Below, piece after piece: positions 6,158 to 16,808 of a stretch of DNA of 24,000 nucleotides (positions are counted from its first letter, which is position 1; every line of letters starts with the position of its first letter). This DNA comes from Ravibacter arvi (GTDB taxonomy: Bacteria; Bacteroidota; Bacteroidia; Cytophagales; Spirosomataceae), in the NCBI RefSeq assembly GCF_039540405.1, contig NZ_BAABEY010000001.1:5493-29492 (forward strand). The letters run 5' to 3'. The position numbers and the translations under genes were made by a program. The notes beneath the pieces are model-generated. The model had not been told where the DNA came from. It saw nothing but the letters and a program-made list of their open reading frames with translations, and searched no databases.

Positions 6158-6775
6158 ATGAATCGTGTACTCGTGGTCGATGATCATCGGATTTTTACAG
6201 ACGGAATCTGTTTCCTGATCGGGCATACGACTGATCTGGAAGTAGCAGGAGCCCTGCATCAGGGCAAAGACGTACTCCCTTTTCTTGTGGGTCGTAAAGT
6301 CGACATTCTGTTGCTGGATATCGACATGCCGGATCAGTCCGGCTTTGACATTGCAAAAGCCGTAAAACAGCACTATCCCCACATAAAAATACTCGCACTT
6401 TCTATGATTGATGACGTCATTTCCATGGAAAGGATGTACAGCATTGGCGCAGACGGTTATTGCATCAAAAGTAGCGGTCGGGAGGAGGTTTTCAAGGGAA
6501 TGCGGGTCGTTCTCGGGGGCGCTGCATTCTGGCCTGCTGCTTTTAAGAGTTTATTATCGAAGCAAACGGAAAAATTGGAAAAGTATCTGTTGAGCAAACG
6601 TGAAACAGAAATAATTCAATTGATCTGCGAAGGTGTTACTTCATTTGAAATCGCCCAAAAGCTGTACTTGAGCGTCCGGACAGTCGAGACACATAGGAAG
6701 AATATCTATCGCAAACTGGGTGTGCATAATAATATGGAACTGGCCAATTATGCACGTAAACGACTGGATCTTTAA
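6158..6775 (+). CDS. Two-component response regulator, NarL/FixJ (LuxR HTH) family
   Basis: The ATG at 6158 gives MNRVLVVDDHRIF, a receiver domain with phospho-acceptor context ILLLDIDMPD. The C-terminal LuxR HTH reads LSKRETEIIQLICEGVTSFEIAQKLYLSVRTVETHRKNIYRKLGV. The longer ORF start at 6107 adds a non-conserved leader. Confidence 0.9.
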   Translation: MNRVLVVDDHRIFTDGICFLIGHTTDLEVAGALHQGKDVLPFLVGRKVDILLLDIDMPDQSGFDIAKAVKQHYPHIKILALSMIDDVISMERMYSIGADGYCIKSSGREEVFKGMRVVLGGAAFWPAAFKSLLSKQTEKLEKYLLSKRETEIIQLICEGVTSFEIAQKLYLSVRTVETHRKNIYRKLGVHNNMELANYARKRLDL

Positions 6776-6791
6776 ACTCAATACCGAATTG

Positions 6792-9700
6792 ATGCGCTGC
6801 TCCGTCGTATGGCTGATCTGGCTTTTGACCACGTTTCATGTTAACGGGCAACATACAACGGACATTGCGTCCGTTCCATCCCAAAATCATTTCTTTTTTG
6901 AGCATTTTTCCCAGGAAAGCGGGCTTTCGCAGGGTACGGTGTATGCCATCAGTAACTATGACGGTTATATGTGGTTTGGTACACAGGATGGATTGAACAG
7001 ATTTGACGGGCATGTTTTCAAGACGTTCAGGGCTGGAAGGAGCTCTGGAAACTCCTTGAATAACAACTGGATTCAGACACTTCTGGCTGATAGCCAAGGC
7101 CGTCTCTGGATTGGTACGCAGGAGGGGCTCTGCTTGTATGAGGCACGAAAAGACCGTTTTCAAAGGTTCTCAAGCGTTGTAAAGAAAAATCACCCGGTCG
7201 ATTCCGTCTCGGTGAAAAAGCTGCTAGAAGACCGAAGCGGCAATATCTGGATAATGACCGGTGGGCAAGGACTTTTTTGTCTCTATGTCTCCAGCGGTAA
7301 AGTGGTTTCGTATATGCAGGAAAGTGATAAACTCTACGATTTCTGTCTCGCCCCCGACGGAACGGTGTGGCTGTCGACCTATGACGAGGTGTACCGCTAT
7401 GATGCTAAAAATGATCTCTTCAAAACTACTGGTATCAGGAAGAAACTGAACAAGTATCTCTCCGCGAAGTCGCTAATCCAATCCATTTTCGTGGATTCAA
7501 AAGAAAATCTCTGGGTTGGAACCTATCAGGAGGGTTTGTTTAGGCTTGACAATCCTTTGGAAAGGGGCAGGGTTTCGCATTATGTCAAAGGCACAAGTAA
7601 TAAGAATATTGCCGGCAATGAAATACGCGATTTTTTGGAAGACCGTAATGGCAGGGTATGGATGGGGGTTAAGGATGCAGGGATATCAGTGTTTAATTAT
7701 TCAGACGAGACGTTCGAACACGCTACCGGAGATGAAGTGCGCAGTTTATATGAAGATCATCAGGGAATTATCTGGCTTGGTCTGAGCTACAACGGCGTTA
7801 ATAAATATGATCCGGCCAAACATGTGTTTAAATTTATTCGAAAGCGGGAAAGTCAGTATCAGAATGGTTCTGTTTATACTATTTATGGAAAAGGCGAGAA
7901 TTTGTACATCGGAACTGCCAACAGGTTGATGATTTACCCCATCGGCGCACGTCAATCTGACAATGATCGTGGTCATCGCTTGTCAGGTGTAAATTTCGAA
8001 GTCTATAATATCTCCGAAGACAACCTAGGAAACCTGTGGATTGTATCAACCGATAAAGGTTTATACCGATTCGATGATAAAAGAGGCTACGTGCCTTACT
8101 CAAACGTAAGTGGCGCAGACCGGTTGCAATATTTTCTATATGCAGTTAAGGCACTGAAGAGTATTCCCGAAGTATGGGTAGGCGGACACCGAGGGCTGGA
8201 GAGGTTTGATTTGAAAACACTTAAGTGGAGGGATTGGGATGAAATGCCTCAGATCAAAACGGCAGCGAATTATACTGTTAGAATGATCTATGAGGATTCA
8301 GAACAAAACGTGTGGTTGGGAACGTTAGGTCATGGGTTGGTTTGCTACGACCCGAAAAAAAAGAAGCTCACTGTTTTCGATAAGAAAAACGGGCTTGTAT
8401 GTGATAACATTCGAAGTGTATTACAGGATGGCACTCTCCTGTGGGTGGGGACAGATTGCGGGCTTTTTTTACTTGATATGAAGCGACTCCGGGTAATGTC
8501 ACACTATTCCGAAACGACGTCTGCTCCTTTTAACTTACCTAATGAGGTCGTCTACAGTATCTTGAAGGAACCGGAAGGTGATCTATGGCTTAGCAGCAAC
8601 AAGGGACTCGCGAAATTTTCGCCAAAGAAGGGAGTTCTTAAAACCTACGATGTTACAGACGGTTTGCAAAGTAATGAATTCAATACCAACTGCGCCTATA
8701 AACACACCGACGGAACAATGTATTTCGGAGGAGTAAACGGCATCTCCTATTTTAATCCGAAGGAGCTTAGAACCAATACGTTTGTCCCTCCTGTTAAAAT
8801 TACGGGTATCACTGTATCCGACAGCTCGTATTCACCTAACCTCGAATTCATAACGCTTCCCTACGACCGAAACTTCGTTACCTTCGAGTTTGTCGCACTC
8901 AATTTTTCCAACACAAAAAAGAATCAATACCGATACCGCATGGAAGGTGTCGATCCCAAATGGGTACAGGCAGGTAGTCGAAGGTCTGCCAACTACACGA
9001 ACCTGCAGCCGGGTAAATATATCTTCAGGGTTACAGGCAGCAATAACGACGAAGTTTGGAATAAAAAGGGGATTTCTGTGCGACTTACAATCCTGCCGCC
9101 GTGGTGGGCGACCTGGTGGTTTAAATCTGTATTGATATTGATGCTGGTCAGTGGTGTTTACGGATTGTTTAAATACCGGCTTGCTCAACAAATACAACAA
9201 CGTGAAGCCGAGATACGAGGCTCGCTAATGGCCCAGGAAGCCGAACGACAACGGTTTTCACGTGAGCTTCACGACGGTGTCGGAGCCAATCTTTCGCTTT
9301 TAAAAATGTACCTATCTTCGTTCGGCGACGCCGATATTCCCTTGGCTGAACTGAAAGAACGTTCAGAAAAGCTGTTGGCGGGCTCAGTAGATGAAATCCG
9401 CCGACTGATTCATGACATGCACCCCAGAAACCTTGGATCGTTGGGGTTGGTTAAAGCAACCAATGAAATGGTACAGCTTGTAAATCTTGGCAATCAACGA
9501 CAGGTCATTTTCAGAGTAGAAAATGTTCCTGATCATTTGCCTGAGGTCGTAGAGATTAATCTTTTCCGAATCATCCAGGAGCTCCTACAAAATGCAATAA
9601 AGCACTCCGAAGCACAAACGGTATGGTTGGATTTGCAATTTACTAACCAAAAACTAAGCCTTTCTTACAAGGACAACGGAAAAGGTTTTGATACCTCGTC

Positions 9701-9827
9701 ACCTACACAGGGAAATGGATTGTTGAATATACGGAACCGGGCGACGCTATTGAAAAGTGAGCTCCACGTAAGTTCTGAAGTCGATAAAGGCACTTTCCTC
9801 CAGATATCTTTACCGTTATCTTTATAG
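6792..9827 (+). CDS. Sensor histidine kinase with periplasmic two-component-regulator propeller repeats and a Y_Y_Y domain, one TM, HisKA_3 and HATPase_c
   Basis: The ATG at 6792 lies 17 nt after the regulator stop and gives MRCSVVWLIWLLTTFHVNGQ, which is signal/TM-like. W.GT..GL propeller repeats recur. The Y_Y_Y motif is NQYRYRMEGVDPKWVQAGSRRSANYTNLQPGKYIFRV, the TM is WWATWWFKSVLILMLVSGVYGLF and the H-box is ERQRFSRELHDGVGANLS. C-terminal ATPase motifs are present (QELLQNAIKHS, DNGKGF, GNGLLNIRNR). Confidence 0.9.
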   Translation: MRCSVVWLIWLLTTFHVNGQHTTDIASVPSQNHFFFEHFSQESGLSQGTVYAISNYDGYMWFGTQDGLNRFDGHVFKTFRAGRSSGNSLNNNWIQTLLADSQGRLWIGTQEGLCLYEARKDRFQRFSSVVKKNHPVDSVSVKKLLEDRSGNIWIMTGGQGLFCLYVSSGKVVSYMQESDKLYDFCLAPDGTVWLSTYDEVYRYDAKNDLFKTTGIRKKLNKYLSAKSLIQSIFVDSKENLWVGTYQEGLFRLDNPLERGRVSHYVKGTSNKNIAGNEIRDFLEDRNGRVWMGVKDAGISVFNYSDETFEHATGDEVRSLYEDHQGIIWLGLSYNGVNKYDPAKHVFKFIRKRESQYQNGSVYTIYGKGENLYIGTANRLMIYPIGARQSDNDRGHRLSGVNFEVYNISEDNLGNLWIVSTDKGLYRFDDKRGYVPYSNVSGADRLQYFLYAVKALKSIPEVWVGGHRGLERFDLKTLKWRDWDEMPQIKTAANYTVRMIYEDSEQNVWLGTLGHGLVCYDPKKKKLTVFDKKNGLVCDNIRSVLQDGTLLWVGTDCGLFLLDMKRLRVMSHYSETTSAPFNLPNEVVYSILKEPEGDLWLSSNKGLAKFSPKKGVLKTYDVTDGLQSNEFNTNCAYKHTDGTMYFGGVNGISYFNPKELRTNTFVPPVKITGITVSDSSYSPNLEFITLPYDRNFVTFEFVALNFSNTKKNQYRYRMEGVDPKWVQAGSRRSANYTNLQPGKYIFRVTGSNNDEVWNKKGISVRLTILPPWWATWWFKSVLILMLVSGVYGLFKYRLAQQIQQREAEIRGSLMAQEAERQRFSRELHDGVGANLSLLKMYLSSFGDADIPLAELKERSEKLLAGSVDEIRRLIHDMHPRNLGSLGLVKATNEMVQLVNLGNQRQVIFRVENVPDHLPEVVEINLFRIIQELLQNAIKHSEAQTVWLDLQFTNQKLSLSYKDNGKGFDTSSPTQGNGLLNIRNRATLLKSELHVSSEVDKGTFLQISLPLSL

Positions 9828-10620
9828 TTACGGAAATACGCTCTAAACTGGACAGCTATTAAAAATTGTAACTGGATCAGTTGTGATTTATCAAATACTC
9901 CACACTCACATATATTTTGTTTCATACTGATCCACCAAAAGCAGCGCTTCATATTCATGCAGTGAAAAGCTTGTGGTCCGGATGATCCAACCCCCGTCGT
10001 AAGGCGCAGGGTTAAGCAAAGCAGATTGATAAATCAGGGCCTGATTTGTCTTAAACCCCTATAAAGAGGACAGATTATTCAAAAAGTTCAGCTAGTTCCA
10101 TCTCGTCATCCCGGGCAGCTGTGAGGCAAAGATAGGCCGGTGGGCTGTCGTTGTCAAGGCTGTACGAAGCGGACCCCTGGCACGTATCTTGGCGGTCCGG
10201 CATATTTGTCTGTCAGCAGAAAACCATGGGTATGGCCACGAGCATCCTCAATAAAGACCCTCGCGAGGGGCCTAGCGCCAATATTTGCTAAGAAATGAAC
10301 TGATGCAGAGGAATGGCAAAAAGGGGTTCCAGAATGCATGGCGAAATGAATGCTCCCGGGGTTACCGATGAGTTTTTCTAAATTAACAGTGGCTTATCAA
10401 AAAGCGCGTACCGGGGTATACAATAGCATCAGTTCATTATTCAGGCGCTTTCGTTTCAACGACTGCTCGATTATCTATCGGATTGGTTAATTTCAGTTGA
10501 CTGCGCCATTCTGTCAAAAAAAGATAAAATGGAATCAAATGTTCGATAGAGATTTCTTTCTCTCTACTCATGGTGTTGTAAATGAGTGAGTTATAAATAA
10601 ACTACACTTTCTTACACACA

Positions 10621-10660
10621 AAAGAGCCCTGAACAAACAGTTCGGGGCTCTTTTGTTTTA
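10621..10660. terminator. Rho-independent-type hairpin with flanking A and T tracts (bidirectional)
   Basis: AAAGAGCCCTGAAC-AAACA-GTTCGGGGCTCTTT is followed by TGTTTT. The stem is about 13 bp with one T/G position. The A-run upstream lets it work on either strand. Confidence 0.6.
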
Positions 10661-10831
10661 CTTCTGAACATACCAAGCATTCCCCAAACTTGGAGAAGGG
10701 TAGAGGTCAAACTTTCGATAAACCTACCCTTGTCCAATTTTGGACAGGCATACTTAACTCTGTTAACTGCTCACCGAATTGCTCACCAAAAATTTGGGCT
10801 TTTAGGAACAATTTGATGAACGGCGAACAAT

Positions 10832-10867
10832 AAAAAAGCCTGTAAATCAACGATTTACAGGCTTTTG
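10832..10867. terminator. Strong bidirectional rho-independent-type terminator
   Basis: A perfect 11-bp stem GCCTGTAAATC (10838-10848) / GATTTACAGGC (10853-10863) encloses a 4-nt loop AACG. It is preceded by AAAAAA and followed by TTTT. Confidence 0.7.
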
Positions 10868-10909
10868 ATGCTTTTTGATTTGATTCTCAGCGGGCTGGGC
10901 GGGAGTGTG

Positions 10910-10954
10910 ATCGAACCTATGGTGCCGTTGCTAGTGTTTCTGGATGAGTTGGAA
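10910..10954 (+). repeat. Left copy of a 45-bp direct repeat (partner at 17122-17166)
   Basis: ATCGAACCTATGGTGCCGTTGCTAGTGTTTCTGGATGAGTTGGAA versus ATCGAACCCCTGGTGCCTTTGTTGGTGTTTCTGGATGAGTTGGGA gives 39/45 identical in the same orientation. Looser gapped similarity (GATTC...GGGCTG) extends ~30 bp upstream. Confidence 0.8.
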
Positions 10955-11237
10955 TTGGGGTAATATTTGTGGTGGTGTGTCAGGCAAACTCATTTCGAAT
11001 GATATAGGCGGAATAGCTAATGTTAACCTCTGTTTTTGCTTTTTGTAGTCGTTTTGGGGAAACAAGTTTTAGCGTTTTTGACAGCCTTATACCAGGAGAG
11101 TCTGAGAGCTGGGTTTGCCTCTGCATCCCGGAATAGGATGGTCCGTCGGCCGGATCTTGACTCAGAGATGAGCACGAAGGCGAACCACAATGCTAACAGT
11201 TCATAGTTACATGTACCTGAGACTCTATGATATCACA

Positions 11238-12026
11238 CTACATCCACACCCTCTCTAGCGTCTGCCTAAATACTTCATTAAGCTTTTCCGTGTCAGGCTG
11301 ATTTTGTGGTCCTAACCCCCTGACGTACTCCGTGTAGAATTGGATCTTTTGTTCAAGAAAACTGTTCAGTACCTGAATTTTCGGTTCCTCATCCAGTTCC
11401 TCCCCTGACACTTTTCTGTTAAGCAGGTTCCGGATTTCATTCTCAACACCCGTATCTATCACCTGACTGTCGAGGAGCTTTTGAAACTCCATAGGAGCCA
11501 TGGAGTTGGTTTTCCTGATCCAATCGCAGGCAAGTATCGGACGCAATACGTAGAAGTATTTCTTCACGCGTACCTTCTCCCCCTGCAAATACGTCTTGTA
11601 ATTGCCTTCGGCCATATGCAGGTAATGATACAAACAGGATTTCGGGTTAAAATACATCTCCGTCAACTCCCGAAGCCTTTCAGCAAAGAAACCACGTTGC
11701 CAATAGACCATCGGACTTCTCAACCACTCCAGCATAGCAGGATTTGATTTTCGAAAAAGACGCAAGGCCTTCTTCAGTTCCCACCCGGCCAGATCGATAT
11801 CGTTGGGCAGTATTTCCTCCTGGCTATCCTTTTTGTCGTCGATGTCCAAATACCATTCAGGCTGATGAACATACATGTATCGCACATCCCAATCGCTGTC
11901 AACGGATGCGAAACCCCAAGCCCGGCTGCCGCTTTCGACAGCATAGAGGATTTTGATAGCATGTTGCTGTTCGAGGCGTAGAAGCTCCCTTTTTATTTCT
12001 TCTGTCATCACTTGCGGTATTGTCAT
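11238..12026 (-). CDS. RlaP-type (Pol-beta fold, PF10127-like) nucleotidyltransferase associated with RNA ligase operons
   Basis: The nucleotidyltransferase core reads ILYAVESGSRAWGFASVDSDWDVRYMYV (GS...D.D). It is followed by LKKALRLFRKSNPAMLEWLRSPMVY, typical of this family. The ORF opens at GTG 12095. ATG candidates are at 12026 and 12008, so the start is uncertain by about 20-90 nt. Confidence 0.8.
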   Translation of the reverse strand: MTIPQVMTEEIKRELLRLEQQHAIKILYAVESGSRAWGFASVDSDWDVRYMYVHQPEWYLDIDDKKDSQEEILPNDIDLAGWELKKALRLFRKSNPAMLEWLRSPMVYWQRGFFAERLRELTEMYFNPKSCLYHYLHMAEGNYKTYLQGEKVRVKKYFYVLRPILACDWIRKTNSMAPMEFQKLLDSQVIDTGVENEIRNLLNRKVSGEELDEEPKIQVLNSFLEQKIQFYTEYVRGLGPQNQPDTEKLNEVFRQTLERVWM

Positions 12027-12133
12027 ATGATCTCTGAAAACCGGCTTTTTACTTCGAAATGGTAATCTCCGGTGATCCTTAAAATGCAGAATCACTGGAG
12101 GTTAACCGGCCATTCGATAAACTACTAAAAACA

Positions 12134-12230
12134 GAAAGAGCGACAAGCCAGCTGTACATTTTCAGGATTCGAACCTGGGCTGTTTTCACAGCTTCTACCA
12201 GCGAAGTATTACATCTGTACAGCATCTTTC
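12134..12230 (-). ncRNA. Y-RNA-like module A (tRNA-like: D-like arm, GAAA-capped hairpin, T-arm; closed by terminal helices)
   Basis: Minus strand: GAAAGA-U-GCUGUACA...CUUC-GCUGGUA-GAAG, CUGU-GAAA-ACAG, CAGG-UUCGAAU-CCUG...UGUACAGC...GUCGC-UCUUUC, then a U5 run. The terminal helix is GAAAGA/UCUUUC and the inner 8-bp helix is GCUGUACA/UGUACAGC. It lies downstream of rsr in an ORF-free gap. Ends are approximate. Confidence 0.65.
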
Positions 12231-12238
12231 ATTTTGTT

Positions 12239-12371
12239 AAGAAGGGTAAAAAAGCAATGCATGGAATATACACCTTACGGCGCTCTGCTCTACCCACTGA
12301 GCTACCCCGCCAGGGCGGGAGCCAGACTCGAACTGGCGACACGAAGTAACACACATTTACGACACCTTCTT
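12239..12371 (-). ncRNA. yrlA: YrlA-type Y RNA module B: circularly permuted tRNA mimic (T-arm, loop-closed acceptor stem, D-arm)
   Basis: On the minus strand the T-arm is GCCAG-UUCGAGU-CUGGC (plus 12321-12337). The acceptor-like hairpin is UCCCGC-CCUG-GCGGGG (12305-12320). After UA comes the D-arm GCUC-AGUGGGUA-GAGC (12287-12302). The flanking 7-bp terminal helix is AAGAAGG (12365-12371) / CCUUCUU (12239-12245). There is no anticodon arm and no free CCA end. It sits next to rsr, as bacterial Y RNAs typically do. Confidence 0.7.
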
Positions 12372-12389
12372 ATTTCTTTATAATAATGG

Positions 12390-12514
12390 TAAGGAGCGAC
12401 AGGCAAAACGAGACGGGGGACCGCCGTTGAGGACTCGAACCTCCATCATATGTTGCCATACAATGCCCTCCCCCTCAAATGCTAGCGAAGTAACCCGTTT
12501 TTACGGCATCCTTA
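12390..12514 (-). ncRNA. Y-RNA-like module C (paralog of module A: D-like arm, GCAA-capped 9-bp hairpin, T-arm)
   Basis: Minus strand: UAAGGA-U-GCCGU...CUUC-GCUAGCAUUU-GAGG, then CAUUGUAUG-GCAA-CAUAUGAUG (plus 12444-12465), then GAGG-UUCGAGU-CCUC (12429-12443), then ACGGC...GUCGC-UCCUUA. It shares the 5' motif UGCYGUA...UACUUCGCU and the 3' motif UGUCGCUCYUU with module A. Ends are approximate. Confidence 0.65.
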
Positions 12515-12561
12515 TTTTATGGATAGAAATCAATCAGTCTGGCCTCAATTCCCCAACTCCT

Positions 12562-14157
12562 TCACAAGAAGCCGGGGGAACACGAAGCAATGTCGATACG
12601 CTCGATTTCATCTAGCGCTTTTCCGCCGTTTTCCAGGGCATCAAGCACGCCGAAGATCTTATCGCTCCATCCGGCCAGCAGGTAAACCTCATTCTGGATG
12701 ATCTGTACGGGTGGGCGTCCATACCCCATCAGGTCAAAAAGGTATAACCTTGCATCGGGCGCTACAGTACGTTTGTATTCCAGCCATAACGCGTAGATGT
12801 TTTTTGTACCGGTCATGCTGTTCCACAACTGACAGTCGGTAAATAGCATCACTTTGTCCATTACTACTTTCTGTTTCAACAGATCCTCAATCACGAGAAA
12901 ACCATTGGTGGAGTAGCCTACCTCTCCTTCCCGCCTATAAAACTCCTGTACATTTGCCAGGACGTTGTTCTTAGGCACCGGGATCAGCTTCCAGGTATCT
13001 CCAAACATCCCGACCCTTACGTTCCTGCACCGGCTTTGAAGCAGCATAGCCAACATCAGTCCTACATCATAGAGCAGGACCTTCGACTTTGGTGAGACAG
13101 GCTTCTGCATGGAGCCCGATATATCACACGCAAGCAATATCCTGGTATTTTCATCAAACCCGGCTATCACGGATGCACTTTGAACAACAGCTTTTTCAAG
13201 CGCTTCCAGTAGCTCGCCTACATATCCATCACTCCCGGTGAAAAAACTTTTCAGCTTTTCAGAAAGGCCGCTCTTTCCAGTAGGCAAAGACAGCAACTCG
13301 CGGTAAGCTGCCAGGTACCGAAAAGGGAATTGTTTTGCATTAGCCACTTTCTCCGGCGCAGAAAGCTGATCCGCTACCTTGCGGATGTGCGGGTGAGATA
13401 CGCCCGCCTCCAGCATATTCCGCAGGTTACGAAGCGTAGCCATGTGACCCAATTTCCCACTATCGATCAGTTCTTCCCATTTAGCTTTAAATGCAGCTTC
13501 CTTTTCAGCGTCACACTCATAGGAAACCTGGCCCAGGGCTGACAGCTCTGTCTCCCAGGTATAAGGTGTTTCAAGCCTGTCGTCTGCAATTTTGTTAAAA
13601 AGATGTTGCTGCGCTTCATCTTTCGGCTTCGGGTGCACCATGAAAAGCGCATCCCGCAACCGGATTTCGGCCGGACGATTGTATTTGGCAAACTGGTATT
13701 CGTCAAACCTGTTAAAAGCCGTAGACAATCCTTTCTGCAATTGTTTGGACAGGCCACCCAGCTTTTTAAAGCCTTTGCGCTTGTTTAAGACCTGGTAACA
13801 GGCCAACAGCTCCGTGATCTCGTCAGCACGTGCAATGACCTTTGCAGTAGCTTTGGACACCAGGTCGTCACCGGAATGTACCCGGGCCAGTTCGGTCAGC
13901 AGCACCAGCGGCGCTGACCGCATATACATTTTATAACGGGTGTAAACTGCCAGCTTTGCGACAAACAACGGATCATTCTCCGCTATCAGCTTCCTGACGC
14001 GCAGCAGGCGATCATTATCCTTTTCGTAAAACGAATCACTGACAGACCACGTCACTACGGCGGTATATAGCTCCATTGCAGGGTCAAGCCTGAAGGTCTT
14101 CTCTCCTTCATAGTTTTTAATCTGCATGCTCCCGTTGTTGACTGTATTAAACCTCAT
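12562..14157 (-). CDS. rsr: Ro60 ortholog Rsr (TROVE domain plus C-terminal vWA domain with MIDAS motif)
   Basis: The protein is about 530 aa. Its N-terminal two-thirds are helical and TROVE-like (FRLDPAMELYTAVVTW...FYEKDNDRLLRVRKLIAE...FVAKLAVYTR...MRSAPLVLL). The C-terminal vWA domain carries DISGSM (DxSxS). It lies next to rtcB and the tRNA-like RNAs. The ATG at 14157 is preferred over the TTG at 14199, which falls inside the upstream palindrome. Confidence 0.85.
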   Translation of the reverse strand: MRFNTVNNGSMQIKNYEGEKTFRLDPAMELYTAVVTWSVSDSFYEKDNDRLLRVRKLIAENDPLFVAKLAVYTRYKMYMRSAPLVLLTELARVHSGDDLVSKATAKVIARADEITELLACYQVLNKRKGFKKLGGLSKQLQKGLSTAFNRFDEYQFAKYNRPAEIRLRDALFMVHPKPKDEAQQHLFNKIADDRLETPYTWETELSALGQVSYECDAEKEAAFKAKWEELIDSGKLGHMATLRNLRNMLEAGVSHPHIRKVADQLSAPEKVANAKQFPFRYLAAYRELLSLPTGKSGLSEKLKSFFTGSDGYVGELLEALEKAVVQSASVIAGFDENTRILLACDISGSMQKPVSPKSKVLLYDVGLMLAMLLQSRCRNVRVGMFGDTWKLIPVPKNNVLANVQEFYRREGEVGYSTNGFLVIEDLLKQKVVMDKVMLFTDCQLWNSMTGTKNIYALWLEYKRTVAPDARLYLFDLMGYGRPPVQIIQNEVYLLAGWSDKIFGVLDALENGGKALDEIERIDIASCSPGFL

Positions 14158-14195
14158 GACATTCTTTGTTTTAATTGAATGTTCAAATTTCAAAC

Positions 14196-14224
14196 TCAAC
14201 TGCGCGGTCTTTCTGCGCAGTTGA
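14196..14224. promoter_or_regulatory. Palindromic operator-like site upstream of rsr (copy 1)
   Basis: TCAACTGCGC-GGTCTTTCT-GCGCAGTTGA has perfect 10-bp arms. It lies between the rtcB stop (14233) and the rsr ATG (14157). It is nearly identical to the site at 15727-15751. Confidence 0.7.
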
Positions 14225-14232
14225 AACTTTTT

Positions 14233-15687
14233 TTAATCCTCCGGCTTTTCTTTAGGATCGGCCATCCTGACAATCCGCGGCTGGAAGCTGGCGAGGACTT
14301 CTACCAAGTCGGATTGCGCGGCCATCACCGCATAGATATCCTTGTAAACCATCGGCGCTTCATCCAGCCCGGATCCGATCACCGTAATGCGGTTTTCCTT
14401 CAGGTTCCTGTCTACCACTGCCTTGTCGATGGTCTTAAGGGCCGCGCTCCGGCTCATCAACCGTCCAGCGCCATGAGAGGCCGAATGCAGCGACTCAGCA
14501 TTCCCTTTTCCACGAACTACAAACCCAGGGGTGCTCATGGAGCCGGGAATAATCCCGAGGGTATCCGCTCCGGCCGGGGTTGCCCCCTTGCGGTGTACCA
14601 TCACATCCGTACCGTCGGCCAGTTTTTCCTTCCAGGCGAAGTTGTGGTGGTTCTCGATGCGTCTCACCGGCGATACGCCGAGTCCTTTGGCGATCTTGTT
14701 GTGGATCTCATGATGGTTAGCCGAAGCGTAGTCGCCTGCCAGGTTCATCGCGATCCAGTACTCTTGTCCCTCGTCGCTATGAAGGTCCAGCCAGGCCAGG
14801 TGACGTGCTTCTTTTGGAAGCAGGGTCTTCTGCATCGCAATGGCCGAATAGGTATTGGCAATATTCCCGCCGAATCCCCTTGAACCGGAATGGGACAGTA
14901 AGGCCAGGTATCTTCCGGCGGGGATACCGTCCAGCGCATTTTCCGTAATCGTCAGCTCACCCCATTCCACGAAATGATTACCGGTTCCGGAGGTACCCAG
15001 CTGCGCATAAGCTTTATCCTTCAGCGCTTTTACGGTCTTGATTTCATTCCACTCCGGGCGGTCGAACAGCGTCGTATCCAGGTGTACGTTCGTTTTAGCC
15101 CCCATACCGAAGTGCGTATGCTCCATCAGCAGTTTTTCCAGTCTTGGCTTTTCGTGCTCCACCGATGCTGCCGGCAGATCGAAGATGCTCAGGCACATAC
15201 GACAGGCGATGTCCACCCCAACCGCATAGGGGATAATGGTATCCGGCTCTGTCGCCAGTACTCCACCTATCGGCAGACCGTAGCCCTGGTGCGCATCAGG
15301 CATCAATGCCCCTGCCACTGCAATGGGCAACTGGATAGCCGTACGCATCTGCGCCAGGGCGCCCACTTCTATGTGTTCCGGGCCGAAGACTGGGAAAGTC
15401 ATGATTTCCTCCTTTAACTGCTGCACGCTCCGGGCCTGTTTGATGAACTGACCTTTCGCGCGCAACTCAACGATCCGTTCGGCAAGATTCTTGAATTTAC
15501 CGTTCCGTTTCAGCGCATAAGGTTCCGGGTGCTCGATCAAGGCTTCAAGGTTGGCCATAATAGTGGCTTTGTCCATCACCTCGTGCTTCAGCAGGCCGTT
15601 GGCCACGCGGCTGAATGCTACCAGCAAGTCCAGGTCGCTGATTCCCAAAGCGCCTAATTCTCCATTGCTGATTTTTTCTCTTTCCAT
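14233..15687 (-). CDS. rtcB: RNA 3'-phosphate/5'-OH ligase RtcB (with an N-terminal extension of roughly 50-85 aa)
   Basis: Canonical RtcB motifs are present: MPDAHQGYGLPIGG, GVDIACRM, GTSGTGNHFVEWG, HSGSRGFG, NHHNFAWKE, HRKGATPA, IPGSMSTPGFVVRGKG and SASHGAGR (the GMP-histidine context). The ATG at 15687 (MEREKISNG...) is preferred over the TTG at 15720. Confidence 0.95.
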   Translation of the reverse strand: MEREKISNGELGALGISDLDLLVAFSRVANGLLKHEVMDKATIMANLEALIEHPEPYALKRNGKFKNLAERIVELRAKGQFIKQARSVQQLKEEIMTFPVFGPEHIEVGALAQMRTAIQLPIAVAGALMPDAHQGYGLPIGGVLATEPDTIIPYAVGVDIACRMCLSIFDLPAASVEHEKPRLEKLLMEHTHFGMGAKTNVHLDTTLFDRPEWNEIKTVKALKDKAYAQLGTSGTGNHFVEWGELTITENALDGIPAGRYLALLSHSGSRGFGGNIANTYSAIAMQKTLLPKEARHLAWLDLHSDEGQEYWIAMNLAGDYASANHHEIHNKIAKGLGVSPVRRIENHHNFAWKEKLADGTDVMVHRKGATPAGADTLGIIPGSMSTPGFVVRGKGNAESLHSASHGAGRLMSRSAALKTIDKAVVDRNLKENRITVIGSGLDEAPMVYKDIYAVMAAQSDLVEVLASFQPRIVRMADPKEKPED

Positions 15688-15726
15688 GAAAGGTATTTTT
15701 ATTTTGATGCTACAAACCAAACCTCT

Positions 15727-15751
15727 AACTGCGCAGTCTTTTTGCGCAGTT
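15727..15751. promoter_or_regulatory. Palindromic operator-like site in the rtcB / WYL-regulator divergent intergenic region (copy 2)
   Basis: AACTGCGCA-GTCTTTT-TGCGCAGTT has perfect 9-bp arms. It lies about 40 nt upstream of the rtcB ATG and 35 nt upstream of the divergent regulator ATG (15786). Confidence 0.7.
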
Positions 15752-15785
15752 GAATTTATTTCCTTACTTTTCTAAAAAAGTTGCG

Positions 15786-16808
15786 ATGCCTGTCAACCGA
15801 AACGCCCTCATACGTTACCGTACCATTGACCAATGCCTTCAGAACCGGTTCCGGAAATGGACCCTCGACGATCTCATTGAAGCCTGCTCGGCCGCCTTGT
15901 ATGAGTTTGAAGGGATCGACAAAGGTGTGAGCAGGCGGACCGTCCAGGCCGATATAGAAATGATGCGAAGCGACAAGCTGGGCTATGAAGCGCCTATTGT
16001 TGTAGTCGACCGGAAATACTACAGTTATGCGGACAAAAACTACAGCATCGCCCATATCCCGTTGAGCCACCAGGATCTGAAGGTGCTGACCGAAGTATCG
16101 GGCCTGCTGCAGCAATTCAAGGGCTTCAGCCATTCTACCGACCTGACCGAGATGGTCAGCAGGCTGGAGGATAAGATACACGCCCGTAAAACACATTCAG
16201 CCCCGGTCATCGATTTTGAAAAGAACGATCACCTTCGCGGCCTGGAGTATATTGAGGGCATCCGGAAAGCGATCGTTGCCCGGACAACGCTTTATCTTAC
16301 TTACCAATCGTTCAAAGCCCGGCAGGCCAGCTCATTCCACTTCAGTCCATACCTGTTGAAAGAGTACCGGAACCGGTGGTTTATGCTTGGCTTGTCACAC
16401 CAGCGGCATGCACCTTTACTCACACTGGCTTTGGACCGGATACAGGATTTTGGGGAAGACACCGGAGAGCCCCACCGGGAAAATACCCAAATCGATCTAT
16501 CCACCTATTATTCGGATGTGATCGGCGTGACCAAAACTCCGGGGCAGCGCGACTGTGAAGTAATATTCAGGATGGATCACAAAGACGCTCCTTACCTGAT
16601 CACCAAGCCGCTTCATCCTACGCAGAGGGTTTTGAGCGAAGACGCAGGAGGGAAAATTTTCAGTATTAAGGTTGTCTTGAACTTCGAGCTGGAAAGGGAG
16701 ATACTTGGTTTTGGTCCAAGAATACACGTTTTAGGTCCAAGGATTCTTCGTAAAAGGATCAGGGAACAGTTGAGAGAGGCTTTGGAGAAATATGAGTCTC
16801 CAGAATGA
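15786..16808 (+). CDS. HTH-WYL domain transcriptional regulator
   Basis: The ATG at 15786 gives MPVNRNALIRYRTIDQCLQNRFRKWTLDDLIEACS...GVSRRTVQADIEMMR, the N-terminal wHTH typical of Bacteroidota WYL regulators. The central WYL-type strand reads FHFSPYLLKEYRNRWFMLG. A C-terminal extension follows. The gene is divergent from rtcB. Confidence 0.8.
   Translation: MPVNRNALIRYRTIDQCLQNRFRKWTLDDLIEACSAALYEFEGIDKGVSRRTVQADIEMMRSDKLGYEAPIVVVDRKYYSYADKNYSIAHIPLSHQDLKVLTEVSGLLQQFKGFSHSTDLTEMVSRLEDKIHARKTHSAPVIDFEKNDHLRGLEYIEGIRKAIVARTTLYLTYQSFKARQASSFHFSPYLLKEYRNRWFMLGLSHQRHAPLLTLALDRIQDFGEDTGEPHRENTQIDLSTYYSDVIGVTKTPGQRDCEVIFRMDHKDAPYLITKPLHPTQRVLSEDAGGKIFSIKVVLNFELEREILGFGPRIHVLGPRILRKRIREQLREALEKYESPE

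What the first reader, a model, noticed from the sequence alone, without database searches (positions are those of the whole stretch)
12239..12371. Middle module is a circularly permuted tRNA mimic with a loop-closed acceptor stem
On the minus strand the order is T-arm, then acceptor hairpin, then D-arm. The T-arm is GCCAG-TTCGAGT-CTGGC. The 6-bp acceptor-like stem TCCCGC/GCGGGG is capped by CCTG. After TA comes the D-arm GCTC-AGTGGGTA-GAGC. The segment GCGGGGTAGCTCAGTGGGTAGAGCA is almost indistinguishable from the 5' third of a genuine tRNA. However, it follows the T-arm rather than preceding it. This is the architecture described for YrlA: a tRNA-like effector domain with no free CCA end, joined to the Ro-binding stem through the stem equivalent to the anticodon stem. 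The linking stem here (TTAC..CGT / GCG..GTAA) is short and interrupted, which is consistent with a kink.
Basis: partly seen in the sequence, partly recalled or inferred. Interest (0 to 1): 0.7.

Follow-up and report, generated by a model that had tools for sequence, protein, structure and literature searches.

The report
Ro-linked circularly permuted tRNA mimic (YrlA-type)
The flagged segment is a real small RNA gene of the known "YrlA" type, a Y RNA whose middle folds like a tRNA with its ends swapped; it sits right after the gene for its partner protein Ro in an RNA-repair operon of a Bacteroidota bacterium, so it is a correct but largely expected find, from a divergent and unannotated branch of the family.

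Summary
On the minus strand, 12337-12287 reads T-arm, loop-closed 6-bp acceptor hairpin, UA, then D-arm. The whole 12371-12239 unit closes on itself. The independent Rfam YrlA model aligns all three arms (40 bits, E 3.4e-7) but stays below its curated cut-off of 69.

The unit lies 191 nt after a Ro/TROVE gene, inside an RtcB-Ro-RNAs-RlaP operon with a divergent WYL regulator. It is the middle of three tandem modules that share one 5'/3' closing module.

Eighty related Bacteroidota Ro loci carry 1-9 such modules each (median 5), on Ro's strand. A covariance model built without the window or its two closest relatives finds the unit at 98.5 bits. Across 150 homologues, 30 of 31 base pairs show compensatory changes, and the tertiary 15:48 pair covaries (G:C or A:U).

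The proposed linking stem (TTAC..CGT/GCG..GTAA) shows no covariation. GUAA is the tetraloop of a conserved hairpin after the D-arm, so the link is a three-way junction above an 8-bp stem.

Verdict: a divergent YrlA-type Y RNA. The kind is known; this subfamily has a variant Ro-binding motif and is missed by Rfam's threshold. Ro binding and function are inferred, not tested.

The parts
12239..12371 (-). Module M2: complete YrlA-type Y RNA unit (about 131-133 nt)
   Evidence: R1 gives 119.6 bits over 12370-12240. The leave-out model R2 gives 98.5 bits, E 5e-25, full length. Rfam YrlA gives 40 bits, E 3.4e-7 over 12357-12253.
12365..12371 (-). Closing stem A, 5' strand AAGAAGG (pairs with 12245-12239)
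   Evidence: RNAfold. Helix 1 is 97.4% paired with 8/8 pairs compensatory across 150 homologues.
12357..12364 (-). Putative Ro-binding strand U-GU-CGUAA. U12364 is bulged; G12363-U12362 pair with C12246-A12247.
   Evidence: In 150 homologues U7, G8, C10, G11 and U12 are invariant or nearly so, and Y9 covaries with R on the 3' strand (C:G 78, U:A 65). It occupies the place of the GNCGAAN0-1G motif of Chen 2014. Ro binding is inferred.
12350..12357 (-). Stem B, 5' strand AAUGUGUG (pairs with 12263-12256 CAUGCAUU)
   Evidence: Helix 2 is 96.2% paired with 8/8 pairs compensatory. RNAalifold predicts it independently.
12342..12349 (-). UUAC-UUCG, nearly invariant junction motif. UUAC corresponds to the YUAY motif of YrlA, whose UA makes the kink in the Salmonella structure.
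   Evidence: In 150 homologues U27 is 150/150, A28 142/150, C29 150/150, U30 143/150, U31 150/150 and C32 150/150. YUAY is described.
12338..12342 (-). Variable-loop equivalent GUGUC (tRNA positions 44-48). C12338 is the Levitt partner of G12301.
   Evidence: 15:48 covaries in the family: G:C 110, A:U 21.
12321..12337 (-). T-arm GCCAG-UUCGAGU-CUGGC
   Evidence: Compensatory A:U to G:C change relative to L001 and L002. Helix 3 is 98.9% paired.
12305..12320 (-). Acceptor-stem equivalent closed by a loop: UCCCGC-CCUG-GCGGGG (6 bp)
   Evidence: Helix 4 has 6/6 pairs compensatory; its total length varies from 10 to 34 nt among homologues.
12287..12304 (-). UA (U8 A9) plus D-arm GCUC-AGUGGGUA-GAGC
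   Evidence: Helix 5 is 98.3% paired. UA occurs in 133/150, A14 in 141/150 and GG in the D loop in 129/150.
12270..12283 (-). Hairpin H: GCGCC-GUAA-GGUGU (GNRA tetraloop) between the D-arm and stem B
   Evidence: RNAfold. 100% paired with 4/4 pairs compensatory on MAFFT alignment A6. A hairpin at this position is present in 19/45 V-less and 13/105 V-type homologues.
12239..12255 (-). 3' strand of the Ro-binding internal loop (GCUUUUUU), AC, and the stem A 3' strand CCUUCUU
   Evidence: Conserved G, U and UU positions, and R covarying with Y9.
12390..12514 (-). Module M1: same closing module, different head (T-like arm 12443-12429, GCAA-capped 9-bp hairpin)
   Evidence: R1 37.9 bits and R2 38.9 bits, full-length through the shared termini. 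The head was read from the sequence.
12134..12230 (-). Module M3: same closing module. The head has an anticodon-arm-like hairpin (12192-12179) and a T-like arm (12177-12163), with no acceptor or D stem.
   Evidence: R1 31.7 bits and R2 33.7 bits. The head was read from the sequence.
12562..14199 (-). Ro60/Rsr orthologue (TROVE + Ro60 vWA domains)
   Evidence: Pfam PF05731 at 1.4e-27 and PF25045. Homologues are Bacteroidota TROVE proteins.
14233..15720 (-). RtcB RNA ligase
   Evidence: Pfam PF01139 at 1.7e-82.
11238..12095 (-). RlaP nucleotidyltransferase (true start probably the ATG near 12029)
   Evidence: Pfam PF10127 at 1.5e-90. Conservation with L001 resumes at the ATG.
15750..16808 (+). 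Divergently transcribed WYL/WCX-domain protein (putative regulator)
   Evidence: Pfam PF13280 and PF25583. Divergent from the Ro operon in 36/80 related loci.

Best explanation
M2 is a YrlA-type bacterial Y RNA. It is probably transcribed with rtcB and rsr on the minus strand and cut out of the polycistronic transcript. Its 5' and 3' ends pair (stem A, bulged U, G-Y:R-C, internal loop CGUAA/GCUUUUUU, stem B) to form the module that binds the Ro ring encoded just upstream. The distal part folds into a tRNA-shaped L, made of a T-arm, a loop-closed 6-bp acceptor stem, U8-A9, a D-arm, a 5-nt variable loop and the G15:C48 Levitt pair. This L has no anticodon loop and no CCA end. The L would present a tRNA elbow to a tRNA-binding partner, so that Ro is tethered to it or competes with it. 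Candidate partners are a nuclease such as PNPase, the co-encoded repair enzymes RtcB and RlaP, or a tRNA-cleaving toxin. Shown here: the anatomy, the conservation, the covariation of all helices and of one tertiary pair, and the linkage to Ro. Inferred from work on Salmonella, Deinococcus and Mycobacterium Y RNAs: Ro binding, processing, modification by tRNA enzymes and the tethering or decoy role.
For: The Rfam YrlA model aligns T, acceptor and D arms at E 3.4e-7. The unit lies 191 nt downstream of, and on the same strand as, a TROVE/Ro gene in an RtcB-Ro-RlaP operon. The permuted order recurs in at least 55 of 80 Bacteroidota Ro loci by regex. CM R1 gives 363 hits, almost all on Ro's strand. 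The leave-out CM R2 finds M2 at 98.5 bits, E 5e-25. 96.9% of cells are paired, against 70.5% in shuffles and at most 48.6% when slid, and 30/31 pairs are compensatory. RNAalifold on a MAFFT alignment returns the same five helices. The Levitt pair covaries, G:C 110 and A:U 21. G.U pairs in stem B, the acceptor stem and hairpin H, together with minus-strand-only CM hits, fix the transcribed strand. Published properties of YrlA come from Chen 2014 and Wang 2018.
Against: The Rfam score is below the curated cut-off (40 against 69 bits). The 5' motif is GUCGUAA, not the published GNCGAA. No expression, processing, Ro binding or modification data exist for this organism. The energy z-score of the single sequence is weak (-1.8). 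The joint between the tRNA-like head and stem B is unresolved: at most 3 bp (UUC:GAG) can form, and these positions are invariant, so covariation cannot support them. The covariation alignment A4 was fitted to the model, which inflates pair counts.
Confidence: 0.82

Rival explanations
1. M1, M2 and M3 are not three separate Y RNAs. They are domains of one long structured RNA, for example a leader or attenuator for rlaP or a 3' UTR of rsr, and M2 is only a stabilising or regulatory domain.
For: The modules are only 10-20 nt apart, with no promoter-like or convincing terminator-like site between them. They lie between two co-oriented genes.
Against: Each module closes on itself through its own covarying 5'/3' stem. 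Module number varies from 1 to 9 between loci, and RlaP follows in only 19/80 loci, so the modules are autonomous units not tied to rlaP. Y RNAs of M. smegmatis and D. radiodurans are processed from polycistronic precursors.
Confidence: 0.1
2. The tRNA-like head has no partner of its own. It is simply a very stable, nuclease-resistant fold that protects the Ro-bound RNA from decay.
For: Chen 2014 proposed this as one possibility. M1 and M3 carry different, incomplete heads, yet share the same Ro-binding module.
Against: D- and T-stem sequences that are not needed for the fold are strongly conserved here (GCUC/GAGC; G53:C61 in 138/150), as in other YrlAs. The invariant UACUUCG next to the head also suggests specific recognition.
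Confidence: 0.15
3. The segment is a degenerate pair of tandem tRNA genes, a tRNA pseudogene or a permuted tmRNA, detected by accident (T-arm of one gene followed by the D-arm of the next).
For: Chen 2014 warn that dimeric tRNAs can mimic this pattern. The 5' third matches the tRNA model.
Against: ARAGORN finds no tRNA or tmRNA in the window. Only 4 nt (CCUG) separate the two acceptor strands. There is no anticodon arm, the Rfam tRNA score is 15 bits, and the enclosing stems A and B covary.
Confidence: 0.02

Closest known systems
Salmonella Typhimurium YrlA (Rfam RF02553; crystal structure PDB 6CU1, Wang et al. 2018; Chen et al. 2014)
   Same: The order is T-arm, loop-closed 6-bp acceptor stem, UA, D-arm. 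It has a 5-nt variable loop with a Levitt pair, a YUAY motif before the head, no CCA end and no anticodon loop. It is encoded next to rsr on the same strand, in an operon with rtcB.
   Different: M2 scores 40 bits against the family cut-off of 69, and the Ro-binding half of the Rfam model is largely not matched. The 5' motif is GUCGUAA instead of GNCGAA. An extra GNRA-capped hairpin makes a three-way junction. The motif CUUCG is invariant. There are three tandem modules. The operon has RlaP and a WYL regulator rather than RtcA and RtcR (the Salmonella operon composition is).
Mycobacterium smegmatis YrlA
   Same: A permuted tRNA-like Y RNA bound by Rsr, processed from a precursor that also holds a second Y RNA.
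   Different: The mycobacterial RNA has a 7-bp acceptor stem, is cut by RNase P and receives CCA. M2 has 6 bp, like the Salmonella RNA, which is not cut. The mycobacterial gene lies upstream of rsr.
Deinococcus radiodurans Yrn1
   Same: A Ro-bound Y RNA with a T-arm that tethers Rsr to PNPase. The window's M3 (anticodon-like hairpin with a 6-nt loop plus a T-arm, no acceptor) resembles it more than M2 does.
   Different: Yrn1 lacks a full D-arm and an acceptor hairpin. M2 has both.
Other tRNA-like elements: tmRNA tRNA-like domain, TYMV 3' TLS
   Same: An L-shaped fold with a D-loop/T-loop elbow.
   Different: Those elements have a free CCA end and are aminoacylated. M2 has a closed acceptor stem. 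ARAGORN detects no tmRNA.
Circularly permuted tRNA genes of Cyanidioschyzon merolae and some archaea (own knowledge, not tested)
   Same: The 3' half of the tRNA is encoded before the 5' half, and the acceptor ends are joined by a short linker.
   Different: Those genes are matured into normal tRNAs. M2 has no anticodon arm and is enclosed by a conserved Ro-type closing stem.

Membership tests
YrlA-type Y RNA (Chen et al. 2014) | Encoded within 4 kb of a Ro60/Rsr (TROVE) gene, on the same strand | tested here: met
   The Ro ORF is 14199-12562 (-). M2 starts at 12371 (-), 191 nt after the stop codon.
YrlA-type Y RNA (Chen et al. 2014) | Conserved T-like and D-like stem-loops, in the order T then D, separated by a third stem-loop (the acceptor-stem equivalent) | tested here: met
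   The three helices covary in 150 homologues and are predicted by RNAalifold.
YrlA-type Y RNA (Chen et al. 2014; Wang et al. 2018) | tRNA tertiary-interaction nucleotides: UA between the acceptor stem and D-arm, A14, G18 G19, the UUCRA T-loop, a pyrimidine at the end of the variable loop, and the Levitt pair 15:48 with compensatory changes | tested here: met
   M2 has U8 A9, A14, G15:C48, GG, A21 and UUCGAGU. In the family, G:C occurs 110 times, A:U 21 times and other combinations 14 times.
YrlA-type Y RNA (Chen et al. 2014) | YUAY motif just 5' of the variable region or T-arm | tested here: met
   UUAC at 12349-12346. U, A and C are invariant or nearly so in 150 homologues.
YrlA-type Y RNA (Chen et al. 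2014) | GNCGAAN0-1G motif near the 5' end (presumed Rsr contact) | tested here: inconclusive
   The literal motif is absent. The same position holds GUCGUAAAUG, and the family consensus is G-Y-C-G-U-A-R, nearly invariant. This is a one-base variant. Whether it binds Ro was not testable.
Rfam RF02553 (YrlA) | Score at or above the curated gathering threshold (69 bits) | tested here: not met
   M2 scores 40 bits (E 3.4e-7). Sixteen homologous modules, in all seven Bacteroidota loci searched in E-value mode, score 33-49 bits. No YrlA hit reaches gathering in 15 loci.
Bacteroidota Ro-linked module family (defined here, models R1/R2) | Full-length match to a covariance model built without the window and its two closest relatives | tested here: met
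   R2 gives 98.5 bits, E 5e-25, model positions 1-128 of 128, with no non-standard pair flagged.
Y RNA (general) | Bound by Ro60/Rsr in vivo; stability depends on Ro | not testable with these tools
   Needs co-immunoprecipitation and a Ro deletion strain.
YrlA-type Y RNA | Substrate of tRNA modification enzymes (TruB pseudouridine-55, DusA dihydrouridine) | not testable with these tools
   The target nucleotides U55 and the D-loop U's are present. Modification itself needs an experiment.
tRNA / tmRNA | Cloverleaf with an anticodon arm and open acceptor ends, or a tag reading frame | tested here: not met
   ARAGORN finds 0 genes. Rfam tRNA scores 15.3 bits against a threshold of 29.

The most novel reading that the evidence does not exclude
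Bacteroidota Ro loci may encode arrays (1-9 units) of Ro-tethered, circularly permuted, near-complete tRNAs rather than 'tRNA mimics with a long variable loop'. In many homologous modules the hairpin before the T-arm has the size and signature of a true anticodon arm. It is 17 nt long, is followed by a 5-nt RGGUC variable loop, and its 7-nt loop carries Y32-U33-NNN-R37. The Ro-binding stem enters at position 26/27 or 28/29. With RtcB and RlaP in the same operon, such arrays could act as decoys or sentinels for anticodon nucleases, or as guides that bring Ro and the repair enzymes to damaged tRNAs. On this reading M2 is an anticodon-less derivative: a close relative (L002) keeps GAU-CUGUCAC-AUC exactly where the window has a 15-nt gap.
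Probability: 0.2. Interest if true: 0.7.

Novelty: new variant of a known kind. Interest (0 to 1): 0.38.

Why it matters
The tRNA-like architecture itself has been known since 2014, and its crystal structure since 2018, so the flagged feature is not a discovery of kind.

Three points go beyond it. First, a whole Bacteroidota branch of these RNAs escapes the curated Rfam threshold, so it goes unannotated in genomes, including Bacteroides and other gut and soil taxa. Second, the branch has its own nearly invariant closing-module motifs (GYCGUAR, UACUUCG). These give a testable definition of the Ro-binding site in this phylum. Third, the RNAs come in arrays with interchangeable heads, next to the tRNA-repair enzymes RtcB and RlaP. 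This offers a natural system for asking what the tRNA-like head of bacterial Y RNAs actually recruits, which is still an open question.

Tried and rejected
Rfam at gathering threshold found nothing in the window; only the E-value mode revealed the YrlA match.

ARAGORN found nothing, which rules out tRNA and tmRNA.

The sigma-70 promoter and terminator scan gave no convincing site on the minus strand, and it is of doubtful relevance for Bacteroidota promoters.

I considered a 3-bp 'anticodon-stem' equivalent: UUC:GAG in the window, or UAC:GUR in other modules. It cannot be supported, because the 5' strand is invariant and the 3' partner is often non-complementary. The joint is left unresolved.

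My first 3'-end heuristics mis-trimmed the window and L001, and MAFFT mis-registered the 3' end by one base. The covariance-model realignment corrected this.

Supplementary tables of Chen 2014 are not held, and the 2020 Annual Review is not held. I therefore could not check whether Bacteroidota YrlAs were already listed.

Literature searches for Bacteroidetes Y RNAs found nothing specific.

The viral-contig pattern scan gave 52 hits. Only about a third are real modules by CM, and the rest are likely chance matches.

The ORF-poor 1.3 kb downstream of RlaP gave only weak, both-strand Rfam noise.

Full report
**1. What is in the sequence**

All coordinates here are on the minus strand.
- The stretch 12371-12239 opens with AAGAAGG-U-GU-CGUAA.
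- Next come AAUGUGUG, then UUAC-UUCG-UGUC.
- The T-arm GCCAG-UUCGAGU-CUGGC lies at 12337-12321.
- A hairpin UCCCGC-CCUG-GCGGGG lies at 12320-12305.
- UA follows, then the D-arm GCUC-AGUGGGUA-GAGC at 12302-12287, then A.
- After that come GA, the hairpin GCGCC-GUAA-GGUGU, and AUAUUC.
- The 3' side closes with CAUGCAUU, GCUUUUUU, AC and CCUUCUU.

RNAfold returns the three adjacent hairpins enclosed by the AAUGUGUG/CAUGCAUU and AAGAAGG/CCUUCUU stems. The energy is only modestly better than shuffles (z = -1.8), so thermodynamics alone would not carry the case.

A generic pattern for the permuted order matches once in 24 kb and never in 100 shuffles.

ARAGORN finds no tRNA or tmRNA. Only four nucleotides separate the two acceptor strands. 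This excludes the tandem-tRNA artefact that Chen et al. warn about.

**2. Independent recognition**

Rfam at curated thresholds reports nothing in the window. In E-value mode the YrlA model RF02553 matches 12357-12253 on the minus strand at 40 bits, E 3.4e-7. T, acceptor and D helices align column for column, while the Ro-binding half of the model is largely not matched. The same segment matches the 5' end of the tRNA model, from position 1 through the D-arm into the start of the anticodon stem.

**3. Genomic context**

The minus strand encodes, in order:
- RtcB, 15720-14233
- a TROVE/Ro60 protein, 14199-12562
- the RNA region
- an RlaP nucleotidyltransferase, 12095-11238

A WYL/WCX protein is transcribed divergently at 15750-16808.

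Ro homologues are Bacteroidota proteins from Dyadobacter, Mucilaginibacter and others. The closest loci are uncultured Cytophagales.

The 5.6-kb cassette 11232-16797 is 90.8% identical to locus L001, but the flanks are unrelated.

In 80 related Ro loci, within 4 kb on either side of the Ro gene, the WYL gene is present in 36, RtcB in 30 and RlaP in 19. Ro plus the RNAs is therefore the constant core.

**4. M2 is one of three modules**

Covariance models hit three adjacent units, all end to end through shared termini:

| Module | Coordinates | R1 (bits) | R2 (bits) |
|---|---|---|---|
| M1 | 12514-12390 | 38 | 39 |
| M2 | 12370-12240 | 119.6 | 98.5 |
| M3 | 12230-12134 | 32 | 34 |

The shared part is the closing module: stem A, the bulged U, G-Y:R-C, CGUAR, stem B, and YUAC-UUCG.

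The heads differ. M1 has a T-like arm and a GCAA-capped hairpin. M3 has an anticodon-arm-like hairpin with a 6-nt loop plus a T-like arm. Only M2 has the full T/acceptor/D set.

**5. Related loci**

A regex scan found the T, closed acceptor hairpin, UA, D order 87 times in 55 of 80 loci plus the window.

Model R1 was built from 10 sequences with the five helices I specified. It gives 363 hits at E <= 0.01 in 736 kb, nearly all on Ro's strand and within about 1.5 kb downstream.

The 5' closing motif occurs 401 times on Ro's strand and 10 times on the other strand. Each locus has 1-9 modules, with a median of 5.

Model R2 was built without the window, L001 and L002. It still finds M2 at 98.5 bits, E 5e-25, full length. 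That is the unbiased membership test.

**6. Covariation**

On the 150 best hits:
- 96.9% of cells form standard pairs, against 70.5% in column shuffles and at most 48.6% when partners are slid.
- 30 of 31 pairs show changes on both sides.
- All five helices are supported.

That alignment is fitted to the model, which inflates the numbers. However, RNAalifold on the plain MAFFT alignment A3 predicts the same five helices with no structure imposed. Against L001 and L002, which carry G:C at this position, the window's T stem has A:U, a compensatory difference.

The tertiary Levitt pair also covaries: G15:C48 110 times, A15:U48 21 times, other combinations 14 times. Chen et al. used this same signature for the L-shape.

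In tRNA numbering, M2 has G44 U45 G46 U47 C48, U54 U55 C56, A58, G53:C61, U8, A9, A14, G15, G18 G19, A21 and A26. The canonical tertiary contacts listed for YrlA can therefore all form.

**7. The part of the reading that fails**

I tested this on a MAFFT alignment of 15 homologues that have a hairpin after the D-arm.

| Structure tested | Cells paired | Shuffle level | Compensatory changes |
|---|---|---|---|
| Hairpin GCGCC-GUAA-GGUGU | 100% | 78.7% | all four tested pairs |

For the hairpin, L001 has GCAUC/GGUGU, L002 ACACC/GGUGU, others GCACC-GCAA-GGUGC, GCCUU-GUAA-AAGGU and ACACC-GAAA-GGUGU. Further homologues carry unrelated hairpins at the same place, such as AAGC-AUUUU-GCUU and CAGC-AUU-GCUG, or none at all.

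So GUAA is a GNRA tetraloop. The head, hairpin H and the 8-bp stem B meet at a three-way junction.

At most three pairs (UUC:GAG) could continue the D stem as an 'anticodon stem'. Their 5' strand is invariant, so this can be neither supported nor excluded. The conserved UA of UUAC is the dinucleotide that makes the kink in the Salmonella structure. A kink here is plausible but untested.

**8. Relation to the known family**

The features Chen et al. (2014) and Wang et al. (2018) describe for YrlA are these: proximity and strand relative to Ro; T/acceptor/D order; a closed acceptor stem (6 bp, as in Salmonella); the UA linker; the Levitt pair; YUAY; and no CCA or anticodon loop. All are met.

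Two features are not met.
- The 5' motif is GUCGUAA, with a nearly invariant family consensus GYCGUAR, instead of GNCGAA.
- The Rfam score is below the cut-off. This holds for the whole clade: no YrlA hit at gathering in 15 loci, and 33-49 bits in E-value mode.

I therefore treat M2 as a divergent, Bacteroidota-type variant of the YrlA kind. It is neither a plain member of RF02553 nor anything categorically new.

I could not check whether Bacteroidota entries were already in Chen's supplementary tables. Full-text searches found no paper on them.

**9. Likely mechanism**

By analogy with characterised Y RNAs, the closing module binds the Ro ring. The tRNA-shaped head offers an elbow and D/T stems to a tRNA-recognising partner.

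The operon partners are tRNA-repair enzymes. RtcB is a ligase. RlaP adds one or two nucleotides to damaged RNA 3' ends and restores aminoacylation of over-trimmed tRNA.

Published hypotheses for the head are:
- tethering Ro to a nuclease such as PNPase
- competitive inhibition of an anticodon nuclease
- simple protection from decay

The data here cannot discriminate between them. The strong conservation of D/T-stem sequence and of UACUUCG argues for specific recognition rather than stability alone.

With a 6-bp acceptor stem, M2 is unlikely to be an RNase P substrate.

**10. Side observation with the most novelty**

In most homologous modules, 24-27 nt rather than 12 separate stem B from the T-arm. 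The mode is 26 nt, which equals YUAC (4) plus a 17-nt hairpin plus a 5-nt RGGUC linker.

Among 24 clean 7-nt loops, position 32 is a pyrimidine in 21, position 33 is U in 22 and position 37 is a purine in 23. Shuffles give about one third at positions 33 and 37. Examples are UUCGA-CUGUUAA-UCGGA and UUCGA-UUGUCAC-UCGGC.

The published reading of this element is a class II-like long variable loop. The size, the loop signature and the 5-nt linker fit an anticodon arm better. The Ro stem would then enter at position 26/27 or 28/29.

L002, which is 91.6% identical to the window across its 2.2-kb aligned stretch (12126-14268), has GAU-CUGUCAC-AUC-CC exactly where the window and L001 have a 15-nt gap. 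M2 thus looks like an anticodon-less derivative.

This was only partly followed up and does not change the verdict on M2.

**11. Verdict**

M2 is a YrlA-type Y RNA of a divergent, unannotated Bacteroidota subfamily. Interest is moderate to low for the flagged feature itself, and higher for the array and anticodon-arm observations around it.

Noticed in passing
window 12514-12390 (M1) and 12230-12134 (M3), minus strand: Two further modules share M2's closing (putative Ro-binding) module but carry different heads. M1 has a T-like arm (12443-12429) next to a 9-bp GCAA-capped hairpin. M3 has an anticodon-arm-like hairpin with a 6-nt loop (12192-12179) plus a T-like arm (12177-12163), reminiscent of Deinococcus Yrn1.
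   Followed up: partly
L001-L080, mostly 0-1.5 kb downstream of Ro (e.g. L006 5664-6800, L018 5635-6650, L060 5683-7400): Bacteroidota Ro loci carry tandem arrays of 1-9 such modules (median 5). The 5' motif occurs 401 times on Ro's strand and 10 times on the other strand.
   Followed up: partly
L060 7273-7405, L055 6529-6659, L052 6061-6186, L044 5872-6014, L002 1904-2048 and others: The hairpin before the T-arm (published as a long variable loop) has anticodon-arm dimensions and signature: 17 nt followed by a 5-nt RGGUC linker, with U33 in 22/24 and R37 in 23/24 clean 7-nt loops. These modules look like near-complete permuted tRNAs. The window's M2 lacks the hairpin through a 15-nt indel relative to L002.
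   Followed up: partly
L040 2761-2819, L055 6073-6133 and 6196-6260, L060 6189-6256 and 7277-7344: Inside the arrays, the Rfam tRNA model gives above-threshold matches on Ro's strand. The L040 2761-2819 and L055 6073-6133 hits cover only model positions 7-64, that is D, anticodon and T arms in normal order without an acceptor stem, which may be a different head type. The L055 6196-6260 and both L060 hits span the full model (positions 1-71).
   Followed up: no
window 11232-16797 versus L001 1399-6954: The WYL-RtcB-Ro-3 RNAs-RlaP cassette is 90.8% identical to a Cytophagales MAG contig, but the sequence on both sides is unrelated. The cassette therefore sits in different neighbourhoods in close relatives.
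   Followed up: partly
window 9958-11238: About 1.3 kb between the hybrid sensor kinase (6720-9827) and RlaP has no ORF of 100 aa or more. It gives only weak, both-strand Rfam noise from palindromic hairpins near 10600-10900, and it is not conserved in L001.
   Followed up: partly
window 12120-12051: An inverted repeat (CUCCAGUGAU...AUCACCGGAG) lies between M3 and the probable RlaP start (ATG near 12029). It is not conserved in L001 or L002. The GTG start at 12095 given by the ORF list is probably too far upstream.
   Followed up: no
L109 2885-3011, L106 7400-9820, L124 11680-12130, L118 5098-5347 (IMG/VR contigs): Predicted viral or prophage contigs carry the same module family (up to 99 bits with R2). 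Some also have a Ro homologue of 31-55% identity nearby (L109, L118 and L124, but none detected in L106). The other pattern hits in viral contigs look like chance.
   Followed up: partly
L022 6243-6389: One homologous module has a roughly 16-nt insertion in its T-loop region in the MAFFT alignment (GGUUCGUCCCGAUUAGCUAUCGGGACCGGC), which looks hairpin-forming by eye, while keeping the rest of the architecture.
   Followed up: no
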